Positions 42,657 to 44,583 of a DNA stretch of 64,000 bases are shown here, piece after piece (position 1 is the stretch's first letter; each line of letters begins with the position of its first letter). The stretch lies in the NCBI RefSeq assembly GCF_054482595.1, contig NZ_CM137008.1; one strand, written 5' to 3'. The translations under genes and the position numbers were made by a program. The notes under the pieces were generated by a model that was not told the origin of the DNA, did not search any database, and worked only from the letters and a program-made list of their open reading frames with translations.

Positions 42657-42688
42657 AGAAAAAAGCCGGCCGTTGGGCCGGCTCTTTT
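42657..42688 (-). terminator. Hairpin with T-run immediately after aceF
   Basis: agccggcc-gttg-ggccggct followed on the minus strand by tttttt; lpd is known to have its own promoter downstream. Confidence 0.65.
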
Positions 42689-42690
42689 AC

Positions 42691-44583
42691 TTACATCACC
42701 AGACGGCGAATGTCAGACAGCGTGTTGTTAATGATGGTAATGAAACGGGCACCATCAGCACCGTCGATCACGCGGTGGTCGAAAGAGAGAGAAATCGGCA
42801 GCATCAGACGCGGCACGAACTCTTTACCATTCCACACCGGCTCCATCGCGGACTTGGAAACGCCGAGGATAGCCACTTCCGGCGCGTTCACAATCGGCGC
42901 GAAGTGGGTAGTACCCAGGCCGCCGATGCTGGAGATGGTGAAGCAACCGCCCTGCATTTCGCCCGCAGTCAACTTACCGTCACGCGCTTTCTTAGAAATA
43001 GTCATCAGCTCGCGAGACAGCTCGATGATGCCTTTCTTGTTGACGTCTTTGAATACCGGAACAACCAGACCGTTCGGGGTATCCACCGCCACACCGATGT
43101 TGATGTATTTCTTCAGGGTCAGACGCTGACCGTCTTCCGACAGCGAACTGTTGAAGCGAGGCATCTGCTCAAGAGCTGCAGCAACGGCTTTCATGATGAA
43201 GACAACCGGGGTTATCTTCACATCCAGCTTACGTTTCGCCGCTTCTTCGTTCTGCTGTTTACGGAACGCTTCCAGCTCGGTGATATCGGTTTTGTCGAAG
43301 TGAGTAACATGCGGGATCATCACCCAGTTACGGCTCAGGTTCGCACCAGAGATTTTCTGGATGCGGCCCAGTTCCACTTCTTCGATTTCACCAAACTTGC
43401 TGAAGTCCACCTTCGGCCACGGCAGCATGCCTGGGATACCGCCGCCAGTCGCTGCCGGAGCTGCTTCTGCACGTTTGATAGCTTCTTTCACGTAAGCCTG
43501 AACGTCTTCGCGCAGGATACGACCTTTACGGCCAGTGCCCTTCACTTTCGCAAGGTTAACGCCAAACTCGCGTGCCAGACGGCGGATCAGCGGAGTCGCG
43601 TGAACATAAGCGTCGTTTTCAGCAAATTCAGATTTGCCTTCGGCTTTTGCAGCCGGAGCTGCTGCCGGGGCTTCAGCTTTTGCTGCCGGTGCCGGCGCTG
43701 CCGCTTCCTGTTTCGCAGGAGCTGCCGCAGGCGCTGCGCCTTCAACTTCGAAGATCATAATCAGCGAGCCAGTTTTCACTTTATCGCCAACGTTGACTTT
43801 CAGTTCCTTCACGACGCCTGCAAACGGAGCCGGAACTTCCATAGAAGCTTTGTCGCCTTCTACGGTAATCAGTGACTGTTCAGCGGCAACTTTGTCGCCC
43901 ACTTTCACCATCACTTCGGTCACTTCAACTTCGTCACCGCCGATATCCGGAACGTTAACTTCTTTCACGCCAGCTGCTGGTGCAGGGGCCGCTGCCGGAG
44001 CCGCTTCCTGTTTAGCCGCCGGAGCTGCCGCGCCTGCTTCACCCGCGACTTCGAAGACCATAATCAGCGAGCCGGTAGACACTTTGTCGCCGGTGTTCAC
44101 TTTGATTTCTTTCACGGTGCCTGCAAACGGAGCCGGAACTTCCATAGAAGCTTTATCGCCTTCTACGGTGATCAGCGACTGCTCAGCTTCAACTTTGTCG
44201 CCAACTTTCACCAGGATTTCGGTCACTTCAACTTCGTCGCTGCCGATATCCGGAACGTTAACGTCTTTTGCCGCGGCAGCCGCGGGTGCTGCTGCCGGAG
44301 CTGCTTCTTTCTTCTCTTCTGCCTGAGCAGGTGCAGCGTCTGCTGCACCGTCGGCGGAATCGAAAATCATAATCAGTGCGCCGGTCTGGGTTTTATCGCC
44401 AACAGAGACTTTGATCTCTTTAACAATACCCGCCTGCGGAGACGGAACTTCCATAGAGGCTTTGTCGCCTTCTACGGTGATCAGCGACTGTTCGGCTTCA
44501 ACTTTGTCGCCCACTTTGACCAGGATCTCGGTGATTTCAACTTCATCAGCCCCGATGTCCGGTACTTTGATTTCGATAGCCAT
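42691..44583 (-). CDS. aceF: Pyruvate dehydrogenase E2 (dihydrolipoamide acetyltransferase), three lipoyl domains
   Basis: 630 aa; three near-identical lipoyl domains (each with [10 protein letters not shown]), Ala/Pro linkers, catalytic C-terminal domain (DHRVIDGA). Confidence 0.95.

What the first reader, a model, noticed from the sequence alone, without database searches (positions are those of the whole stretch)
42657..44583. aceF triple lipoyl-domain repeat and the hairpin downstream of aceF
Seen in sequence: three near-identical ~80-aa lipoyl domains encoded by ~300-bp direct repeats (about 43700-44583), a classic substrate for domain-number variation, and a GC hairpin with T-run right after aceF. 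Well known biology; recorded as structure not explained by simple gene calls.
Basis: partly seen in the sequence, partly recalled or inferred. Interest (0 to 1): 0.15.

Follow-up and report, generated by a model that had tools for sequence, protein, structure and literature searches.

The report
E. coli aceF lipoyl repeats, hairpin
This is the ordinary, well-studied E. coli aceF gene, which encodes three repeated lipoyl "swinging-arm" domains and is followed by a terminator-like hairpin. The only addition is that rare natural E. coli strains carry two-domain versions, made by recombination between the repeats.

Summary
The window is E. coli chromosome (100% identical to strain XH990). The minus-strand ORF 42691-44583 is aceF (630 aa), in the order pdhR-aceE-aceF-lpd. 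AceF has three lipoyl domains, an E3-binding domain and the acyltransferase core.

The three lipoyl units are about 303-309 nt direct repeats, but "near-identical" overstates them: they are 75-86% identical in DNA and 74-86% in protein.

Seven nt after the stop codon lies an 8-bp hairpin with 7 G-C pairs, followed by T6 (42658-42683, minus strand). It has the form of an intrinsic terminator and its stem is unchanged in Salmonella and Citrobacter. A published K-12 Term-seq catalogue lists no 3' end there, so it is probably a leaky terminator.

I ran the suggested check on domain number. At least 8 of 5,423 complete E. coli genomes carry intact two-domain aceF. The breakpoints in the four alleles I mapped (six of these genomes) fall in the 36-nt and 26-nt identical tracts or in the linkers. 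One such allele occurs on 454 contigs in public data. Four-domain alleles appear only in draft or metagenome assemblies and in no complete E. coli genome, so they may be assembly artefacts.

Verdict: already known, low interest.

The parts
42691..44583 (-). aceF coding sequence (630 aa plus TAA stop at 42691-42693): the dihydrolipoyllysine-residue acetyltransferase (E2p) of the pyruvate dehydrogenase complex
   Evidence: RefSeq annotation of the identical XH990 sequence
44344..44571 (-). Lipoyl domain 1 (aa 5-80); lipoyl-lysine K41 lies in the GDKASMEVP motif (codon 44461-44463)
44035..44262 (-). Lipoyl domain 2 (aa 108-183); lipoyl-lysine K144 (codon 44152-44154)
43732..43959 (-). Lipoyl domain 3 (aa 209-284); lipoyl-lysine K245 (codon 43849-43851). 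This matches the solved innermost lipoyl domain, PDB 1qjo
43685..44596 (.). The DNA-level direct repeat: three units of about 300 nt (start-to-start spacing 303 and 309), 67-80% identical to the reference copy over whole units including linkers
44119..44154 (-). The 36-nt tract (AAAGCTTCTATGGAAGTTCCGGCTCCGTTTGCAGGC) in domain 2 that is identical to 43816-43851 in domain 3. It is the breakpoint of the natural 303-nt deletion in strains C2 and Rb-50 (mapped at DNA level); C4 carries the same 529-aa protein
43816..43851 (-). The partner copy, in domain 3, of the 36-nt identical tract
44465..44490 (-). The 26-nt tract (CAGTCGCTGATCACCGTAGAAGGCGA) in domain 1 that is identical to 44156-44181 in domain 2. 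It is the breakpoint of the natural 309-nt deletion mapped in strain 01_3327; 03_3013 shows the same hit signature and annotation
43606..43731 (-). Ala/Pro-rich linker 3 (aa 285-326). It contains a 33-nt tandem repeat (43638-43707, 2.1 copies) whose copy number varies between strains (MB19 has +33 nt, +11 aa)
43498..43605 (-). Peripheral-subunit (E3/E1) binding domain, aa 327-362
42697..43389 (-). Catalytic acyltransferase core domain (aa 399-629), including the DHRVIDG active-site motif
42658..42683 (-). Intrinsic-terminator-like hairpin 7 nt after the aceF stop codon: stem AGCCGGCC/GGCCGGCT (8 bp, 7 G-C), loop CAAC, then T6

Best explanation
The interval is the E. coli aceF gene plus its 3' hairpin. 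AceF (E2p) forms the core of the pyruvate dehydrogenase complex. Each of its three tandem lipoyl domains carries a lipoyl-lysine (K41, K144, K245). On flexible Ala/Pro-rich linkers, these ferry acetyl groups from E1 (AceE) to the E2 catalytic core and on to E3 (Lpd).

The three domains are old in-frame duplications of a unit of about 303 nt, now 75-86% identical in DNA. The short tracts that remain identical (36, 26 and 20 nt), together with the similar linkers, still allow in-register recombination or replication slippage. This removes one unit and yields viable two-domain alleles that occur at low frequency in natural E. coli. It may also add one unit.

The G+C-rich hairpin plus T-run just after the stop codon is most likely a leaky Rho-independent terminator and 3'-end protector. 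It would let some pdhR-aceEF transcripts end there while others read through into lpd, which also has its own promoter.

Shown here: gene identity, domain architecture, repeat identities, hairpin stability and conservation, the two-domain alleles and their breakpoints. Inferred: the recombination mechanism, and termination at the hairpin.
For: Gene identity and architecture come, and the operon order pdhR-aceE-aceF-lpd. The sequence is 100% identical to E. coli XH990, and the region is present in 5,423-5,424 of 5,426 complete genomes. The swinging-arm function and redundancy of the three domains are described in PMC8421416 and PMC6270654. That a single domain suffices in vitro (Guest et al. 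1985) is cited in PMC5013485.

Natural two-domain alleles in complete genomes:
- C2, C4, Rb-50 and VTB97379v (529 aa)
- DSM 103263 (528 aa)
- FDAARGOS_1283 (530 aa)
- 01_3327 and 03_3013 (527 aa, intact ORF)
Mapped breakpoints lie in the 36-nt and 26-nt identical runs or in the similar linkers. The same alleles are seen on 182, 454 and 22 contigs in the wider collection.

Hairpin: -24.9 kcal/mol with z = -4.84. It fits the terminator pattern and is identical in 11 of 12 E. coli sequences examined. The stem is kept in Salmonella and Citrobacter while the flanks differ. An (aceE, aceF) transcription unit separate from the whole operon and from lpd is reported by Quail et al. 1994, as cited in PMC4634151.
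Against: The Term-seq catalogue of Adams et al. 2021 (MG1655, three growth conditions) lists no 3' end at 127,59x-127,64x, where the identical hairpin lies. It does list ends at 126,872 (inside aceF) and 127,845 (67 nt upstream of lpd). Efficient termination at the hairpin is therefore not supported by that dataset. The stem is invariant in all relatives examined, so there is no compensatory-change evidence. Whether domain loss occurs by RecA-mediated crossover or by replication slippage cannot be told from sequence. Four-domain alleles are absent from complete E. coli genomes, so gain of a unit is not securely shown.
Confidence: 0.9

Rival explanations
1. The hairpin is not a working terminator. 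It is mainly an RNA 3'-end protection or processing structure, or is functionally neutral, and essentially all operon transcription reads through into lpd.
For: No curated Term-seq 3' end is listed at the hairpin in MG1655 in three conditions, although ends are called nearby in the same highly expressed operon. The whole-operon read-through transcript is documented.
Against: The hairpin has the canonical terminator form: 8-bp stem with 7 G-C pairs, 4-nt loop and T6 directly after the stem, 7 nt past the stop codon. The stem and T-run are conserved across three genera while the flanks change. A separate aceEF transcription unit is reported. Term-seq catalogues are thresholded and can miss unstable ends.
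Confidence: 0.3
2. The similarity among the three repeats is maintained by ongoing gene conversion (concerted evolution), not just by purifying selection on old duplicates.
For: D2 and D3 within E. coli are as similar to each other (86% nt) as E. coli D3 is to Salmonella D3 (86%). Salmonella D2 versus D3 is 88%. The central GDKASMEVP region is nearly identical in DNA in all three copies.
Against: D1 is clearly orthologous across species (92% E. coli versus Salmonella, against 76% to its own paralogues), and E. coli D2 is closer to Salmonella D2 (89%) than to E. coli D3 (86%). Only two other species were compared, and both alleles used were unusual four-domain ones. Strong codon bias in a highly expressed gene also limits synonymous divergence (my own knowledge).
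Confidence: 0.3
3. The four-lipoyl-domain aceF alleles reported from E. coli, Salmonella and Citrobacter assemblies are assembly artefacts (an extra loop through the repeat in the assembly graph), not real duplications.
For: None of 5,423 complete E. coli genomes carries either tested duplication junction; the best matches are 92.7% and 84.8%. The E. coli examples come from draft or metagenome assemblies. Several metagenome-derived proteins mix E. coli-type and other-species-type domains. The Citrobacter allele has the order [1N/2C][3N/1C][D2][D3], which would need two events but is a simple mis-walk through a shared k-mer.
Against: The architecture is exactly what one unequal crossover would give, with a perfect 303-nt tandem duplication. 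The same protein is found in independent samples with both intergenic types. Salmonella four-domain alleles sit on 4.47-4.68 Mb contigs. A real perfect 303-nt duplication would revert quickly, which would also explain its rarity.
Confidence: 0.5

Closest known systems
E. coli K-12 AceF (E2p), the dihydrolipoyllysine-residue acetyltransferase of the pyruvate dehydrogenase complex (PDB 7b9k, 4n72, 1qjo; NCBIfam NF008814)
   Same: It has the same length (630 aa), the same 3 lipoyl + PSBD + catalytic architecture and the same operon. The DNA is 98.5% identical to MG1655 over 42543-44700 and the protein matches 7b9k over its full length.
   Different: Nothing functional. The differences are strain-level SNPs (for example T164 here versus V164 in several other strains). 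This strain also lacks the ERIC-like insert that K-12 carries between aceF and lpd.
Engineered E. coli PDH complexes with 1 to 9 lipoyl domains per E2 chain (Guest et al. 1985, J Mol Biol 185:743; Machado, Clark and Guest 1992, FEMS Microbiol Lett 100:243; references seen)
   Same: The natural two-domain alleles found here have the same kind of in-register, in-frame domain deletion that was made in vitro and shown to retain activity.
   Different: These are natural alleles in wild isolates. They arose at the endogenous identical tracts and persist in lineages (182 and 454 contigs). No activity or fitness was measured here.
AceF of Serratia symbiotica endosymbionts, which has lost one or two lipoyl domains (PMC5013485)
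   Same: This is natural reduction of lipoyl-domain number in an enterobacterial AceF.
   Different: There the loss is part of general genome erosion in a symbiont. Here it occurs in free-living E. coli with otherwise normal genomes.
Canonical Rho-independent (intrinsic) terminators of E. coli
   Same: The hairpin has a G+C-rich 8-bp stem, a 4-nt loop and a run of six T directly after the stem, immediately downstream of a stop codon.
   Different: It sits inside an operon, upstream of a co-transcribed gene, so it must be leaky. No 3' end is catalogued there in one Term-seq study.

Membership tests
AceF / E2p of the pyruvate dehydrogenase complex (NCBIfam NF008814, TIGR01348) | Whole-protein score above the curated equivalog cut-off | tested here: met
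   NF008814 scores 1101.8 bits (cut-off 722) and TIGR01348 scores 1039.3 bits (cut-off 552.1)
AceF / E2p of the pyruvate dehydrogenase complex (NCBIfam NF008814, TIGR01348) | N-terminal lipoyl domain(s) with the lipoyl-lysine in a DKA motif | tested here: met
   Three Biotin_lipoyl stretches; GDKASMEVP with K41, K144 and K245
AceF / E2p of the pyruvate dehydrogenase complex (NCBIfam NF008814, TIGR01348) | Peripheral-subunit-binding domain followed by a 2-oxoacid dehydrogenase acyltransferase core with the DHRxxDG active-site motif | tested here: met
   E3_binding at aa 327-362 and 2-oxoacid_dh at aa 399-629; '[12 protein letters not shown]' is present in the translation
AceF / E2p of the pyruvate dehydrogenase complex (NCBIfam NF008814, TIGR01348) | Genomic context between E1p (aceE) and E3 (lpd), downstream of pdhR | tested here: met
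   The neighbouring ORFs match PDH_E1_M/transketolase, Pyr_redox_2/Pyr_redox_dim and GntR+FCD
AceF / E2p of the pyruvate dehydrogenase complex (NCBIfam NF008814, TIGR01348) | Lipoylation and acetyltransferase activity | not testable with these tools
   Inferred from near-identity to the characterised and solved E. coli protein
Intrinsic (Rho-independent) terminator | A stable G+C-rich stem-loop immediately followed by a U-run | tested here: met
   8-bp stem (7 G-C), loop CAAC, T6; -24.9 kcal/mol, z = -4.84
Intrinsic (Rho-independent) terminator | Position just downstream of a stop codon, on the transcribed strand | tested here: met
   The stem starts 7 nt after the aceF TAA, on the minus strand
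Intrinsic (Rho-independent) terminator | An RNA 3' end mapped at the U-run in vivo | tested here: inconclusive
   No 3' end is listed at MG1655 127,59x-127,64x in the Term-seq tables of PMC7815308. An aceEF transcription unit is reported in older work. No other dataset was accessible.
Intrinsic (Rho-independent) terminator | Conservation of the structure in relatives, ideally with compensatory changes | tested here: inconclusive
   The stem and T-run are conserved in E. coli, Salmonella and Citrobacter, but the stem is invariant and only the loop changes (CAAC to CGAC)
Dispersed intergenic repeats (REP/BIME, ERIC/IRU), as an alternative identity for the hairpin | Multiple copies in the genome | tested here: not met
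   One match in the 64-kb window even with 3 mismatches allowed. By contrast, the K-12-specific insert nearby has a median of 5 places per genome.
Contingency / phase-variable tandem-repeat locus | Identical or near-identical short repeat units whose copy number changes at high frequency and switches expression | tested here: not met
   The units are about 303 nt and only 75-86% identical. Copy-number variants are in-frame, and two-domain alleles were found in 8 of 5,423 complete genomes (a minimum).

The most novel reading that the evidence does not exclude
Lipoyl-domain number in AceF is a genuine natural polymorphism in E. coli. Two-domain alleles have arisen at least four independent ways: at the 36-nt D2/D3 tract, at the 26-nt D1/D2 tract, and at two linker crossovers. 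At least one of them (the 527-aa D1/D2 hybrid, seen on 454 contigs) appears fixed in a successful lineage. This would imply that the third domain is close to dispensable in nature, or that its loss is advantageous in some niche. I found no paper in the searchable library describing this, but much of the older literature is not in that library.
Probability: 0.8. Interest if true: 0.3.

Novelty: already known. Interest (0 to 1): 0.13.

Why it matters
The gene, its three lipoyl domains and their dispensability in vitro have been textbook material since the 1980s, so the finding itself adds nothing. The small addition is population-level. Public genomes show that the repeats do recombine in nature, and that two-domain AceF is viable and heritable in wild E. 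coli. That gives a natural test set for the old question of why E. coli keeps three lipoyl domains. There is also a practical point: NCBI's annotation pipeline flags the intact 527-aa two-domain gene as a pseudogene in two complete genomes. Four-domain versions in draft and metagenome assemblies should be treated with caution.

Tried and rejected
- Coverage statistics from whole-region BLAST could not detect domain-number variants, because flanking pieces are joined across a deletion. I replaced them with five synthetic 354-nt hybrid-junction queries.
- The junctions for a D1/D3 deletion (single-domain allele) and for both duplications found nothing in complete E. coli genomes.
- Rfam gave nothing above threshold at the hairpin. 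A sub-threshold OrzO-P match (31.9 bits against a gathering score of 60, E = 0.048) at 42659-42722 is attributed to the generic terminator shape.
- The long antisense ORFs on the plus strand (42646-43875, 409 aa; 43634-44326, 230 aa) have no Pfam match and are treated as non-coding by-products of the Ala/Pro-rich reverse frame.
- A REP-like identity for the hairpin was rejected because it is single-copy.
- Supplements of two other transcript-end studies (PMC4161252, PMC6061677) are not held, so they could not be checked.
- Literature searches for a described aceF terminator, or for natural aceF domain-number variants, returned nothing specific.
- I did not run the expensive genome-contig scan for more distant relatives. 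Salmonella and Citrobacter loci were obtained more cheaply, and between-species domain-number variation (1-3) is already documented.

Full report
**What is there**

The window is E. coli chromosome. The stretch 42500-44700 is 100% identical to strain XH990, and 5,424 of 5,426 complete E. coli genomes have a match, nearly all at 95-99% identity. The minus strand carries four genes in order:
- pdhR (47422-48219; GntR + FCD domains)
- aceE (44598-47261)
- aceF (42691-44583)
- lpd (41059-42486)

The aceF product is 630 aa. Pfam finds three Biotin_lipoyl stretches, an E3_binding domain (aa 327-362) and the 2-oxoacid_dh catalytic domain (aa 399-629). It scores 1101.8 bits against the NCBIfam equivalog NF008814, whose cut-off is 722. 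It also matches the full-length solved E. coli E2p, PDB 7b9k. The gene call and its name are therefore secure.

**The repeats**

The repeat finder reports one family of three 300-nt copies at 43685-44596, with spacing 303 and 309 nt. Tandem Repeats Finder reports period 303, 2.7 copies, 79% matches and score 889 at 43748-44562. Taken in register, the lipoyl domains are:
- domain 1: aa 5-80, window 44344-44571
- domain 2: aa 108-183, window 44035-44262
- domain 3: aa 209-284, window 43732-43959

Each contains GDKASMEVP, with the lipoyl-lysine at K41, K144 and K245.

Pairwise identities are as follows:

| Pair | Protein | DNA |
|---|---|---|
| D1/D2 | 78% | 76% |
| D1/D3 | 74% | 75% |
| D2/D3 | 86% | 86% |

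"Near-identical" is therefore an overstatement. A structural paper gives 73% identity and 95% similarity for the three domains (PMC8421416). The longest exact tracts shared in register are 36 nt (D2/D3), 26 nt (D1/D2) and 20 nt (D1/D3). Between the domains lie Ala/Pro-rich linkers. Linker 3 contains a 33-nt tandem repeat at 43638-43707.

**How it works**

This part rests on established knowledge. The lipoyl domains are swinging arms that carry the acetyl group from E1 to the E2 active site and then to E3. The three domains act redundantly (PMC8421416; PMC6270654). Guest et al. 1985 showed that one domain suffices for activity, as cited in PMC5013485. Machado et al. 1992 built complexes with up to nine domains (reference seen).

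**The suggested check: domain number in related strains**

Plain BLAST coverage could not see domain-number changes. I therefore built 354-nt queries that mimic the hybrid domain each in-register deletion or duplication would create, and searched all complete E. coli genomes with them.

| Junction tested | Result in complete E. coli genomes |
|---|---|
| D2/D3 deletion | Full-length single-piece hits at 97-98% in C2, C4, Rb-50 and VTB97379v; more distant full-length hits in DSM 103263 and FDAARGOS_1283 |
| D1/D2 deletion | Hits in 01_3327 and 03_3013 |
| D1/D3 deletion | None |
| D2/D3 duplication | None; best match 92.7% |
| D1/D2 duplication | None; best match 84.8% |

The records annotate aceF at 1,590, 1,587 or 1,593 nt, which is 529, 528 or 530 aa. 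In 01_3327 and 03_3013 the gene is flagged as a partial pseudogene, but the 01_3327 sequence translates as an intact 527-aa ORF starting at the normal ATG; 03_3013 carries the same hit signature and annotation.

At the DNA level the mapped breakpoints fall as follows:
- C2 and Rb-50: inside the 36-nt identical tract
- 01_3327: inside the 26-nt identical tract
- DSM 103263 and FDAARGOS_1283: inside the similar parts of linkers 1 and 2

At least 8 of 5,423 complete genomes (about 0.15%) therefore carry a two-domain AceF, made in at least four different ways. This is a minimum, because alleles with other crossover points could rank among normal genomes in my searches.

In the larger protein collection, exact look-ups give these counts:
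- 529-aa allele: 182 contigs
- 527-aa allele: 454 contigs
- 530-aa allele: 22 contigs
- the cluster of two-domain proteins has 305 distinct members

These alleles are thus heritable and present in multiple isolates, not one-off errors. The tracts of 26-36 nt are about the minimum length usually quoted for efficient RecA-mediated recombination in E. coli (my own knowledge). The mechanism itself, crossover or slippage, is inferred and not shown.

**Four-domain versions**

The protein search returned AceF of 727-738 aa from E. coli, Salmonella and Citrobacter. The E. coli ones have the order D1, D2, [D3N/D2C], D3 (P0004, P0005, P0012, P0014) or D1, [D2N/D1C], D2, D3 (P0001). At the DNA level they are perfect 303-nt tandem duplications.

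They come from draft isolate or metagenome assemblies, and no complete E. coli genome has either junction. Several metagenome-derived proteins mix domains typical of different species. The Citrobacter allele has an order that is easier to explain as a wrong path through an assembly graph than as biology.

I cannot decide between real but unstable duplications and assembly artefacts, and I rate these about even. A perfect 303-nt duplication would also revert readily, so its rarity does not settle the question.

**Age of the repeats**

E. coli D1 is 92% identical in DNA to Salmonella D1 but only 76% to E. coli D2 or D3. The triplication therefore predates the split of these genera. D2 and D3 are about as similar within a species (86-88%) as D3 is between species (86%), which hints at occasional conversion between them. 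The comparison is small and used unusual alleles, so this is only a lead.

**The hairpin**

On the minus strand the sequence after the stop codon reads TAA gtaaaag AGCCGGCC caac GGCCGGCT TTTTTT ctgg. The stem-loop is at 42683..42664 and the T-run at 42663..42658. Supporting observations:
- As RNA it folds at -24.9 kcal/mol against -12.3 ± 2.6 for shuffles (z = -4.84; 0 of 200 shuffles fold as well).
- It is single-copy in the window.
- It is identical in 11 of the 12 E. coli sequences I examined. Rb-50 has one T-to-C change in the T-run.
- In Salmonella and Citrobacter the stem and T-run are kept, while the loop (CAAC to CGAC) and the upstream bases differ.

This is the form and position of an intrinsic terminator. 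A separate aceEF transcription unit, alongside the whole operon and lpd alone, is reported by Quail et al. 1994, as cited in PMC4634151.

Against this, the curated Term-seq 3' ends of Adams et al. 2021 (MG1655, three conditions) include no position in 127,590-127,649, where the identical hairpin lies. They do include 126,872 (inside aceF) and 127,845 (67 nt upstream of lpd). My reading is a leaky terminator and 3'-end protector, with about 0.6-0.7 confidence for that part. This fits the need to co-express lpd with aceEF. The rival, that it does not terminate to any useful extent, stays open.

**Other strand and other checks**

- The plus-strand ORFs overlapping aceF have no family match.
- Rfam has nothing above threshold in the interval.

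**Verdict**

The modest new information is the natural two-domain polymorphism and its breakpoints. Interest is low.

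Noticed in passing
window about 42510-42543 (between the lpd promoter-like site and the lpd start at 42486); compare L003 (K-12): K-12 and 3,433 of 5,426 complete genomes carry an insert of about 125-150 nt here, which this window replaces with about 33 nt (GATAATGGGCGTCATAAAAAAAACGTCAGAC). The insert is a dispersed repeat (median 5 places per genome) whose core resembles the ERIC/IRU element from my memory. A Term-seq 3' end (MG1655 127,845, -67 of lpd) lies inside it. The lpd 5' leader therefore differs structurally between E. coli lineages.
   Followed up: partly
window 47264-47377 (+), in the pdhR-aceE intergenic region: There is an Rfam match to the tp2 sRNA family (103.4 bits, gathering score 50) on the strand opposite to the operon. 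On the operon strand the same spacer holds a published Term-seq 3' end (MG1655 122,941; its sequence lies at window 47327-47366, minus strand) and a published RNase III cleavage site (122,961).
   Followed up: no
window 42577-42590, within the promoter-like site 42568-42596 (-): A perfect 14-nt palindrome, AATTGTTAACAATT, sits in the spacer of the only sigma-70-like match upstream of lpd (TTTAAA-17-TAAAAT). It is conserved in Salmonella and Citrobacter and looks like a regulator-binding site. I did not identify the regulator.
   Followed up: no
L001 (E. coli strain 463, NZ_CP183105.1), aceF; corresponds to window 43903-44094 deleted: This is an out-of-register 192-nt (64-aa) in-frame deletion joining N163 of domain 2 to V228 of domain 3, between the two VGDKV motifs that occur in each lipoyl domain. 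It leaves an abnormal chimeric unit of about 111 aa with two lipoyl-lysines. The same 566-aa protein is on 6 contigs, so it is inherited and not a one-off error. Whether the chimera folds is unknown.
   Followed up: partly
window 43638-43707 (linker 3); L002 (strain MB19): The 33-nt tandem repeat in linker 3 gains a copy in MB19 (+11 aa, aceF 641 aa). Other complete genomes show length differences of +9, +12 or -12 nt in the aceF region (hits H38, H39, H97, H99), which I did not localise. Linker length is thus polymorphic as well as domain number.
   Followed up: partly
L008 and L017 (strains 01_3327 and 03_3013): RefSeq annotation marks the two-domain aceF as 'incomplete; partial in the middle of a contig; missing N-terminus' (pseudogene), although the 01_3327 ORF is intact with the normal ATG (527 aa). 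This is an annotation artefact caused by the missing repeat unit.
   Followed up: yes
window about 43396-43406 (-), inside aceF, in the linker between the PSBD and the catalytic domain: A published Term-seq 3' end internal to aceF (MG1655 126,872) maps here. Its origin (processing, pausing or a small RNA) is not explained.
   Followed up: no
proteins P0036 and P0038 (E. coli AceF variants from the protein search): P0036 (680 aa) has a 50-aa tandem duplication covering the peripheral-subunit-binding domain. P0038 (668 aa) has a 38-aa partial duplication inside lipoyl domain 2. Neither was checked at the DNA level.
   Followed up: no
hit H40 (strain JCL301, laboratory) and the protein collection, cluster 2: Three of 5,426 genomes lack the aceF lipoyl region, and one is an engineered laboratory strain. 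Separately, the 90% protein cluster that holds the canonical AceF also holds 887-aa AceE sequences, which looks like a clustering artefact in the collection.
   Followed up: no
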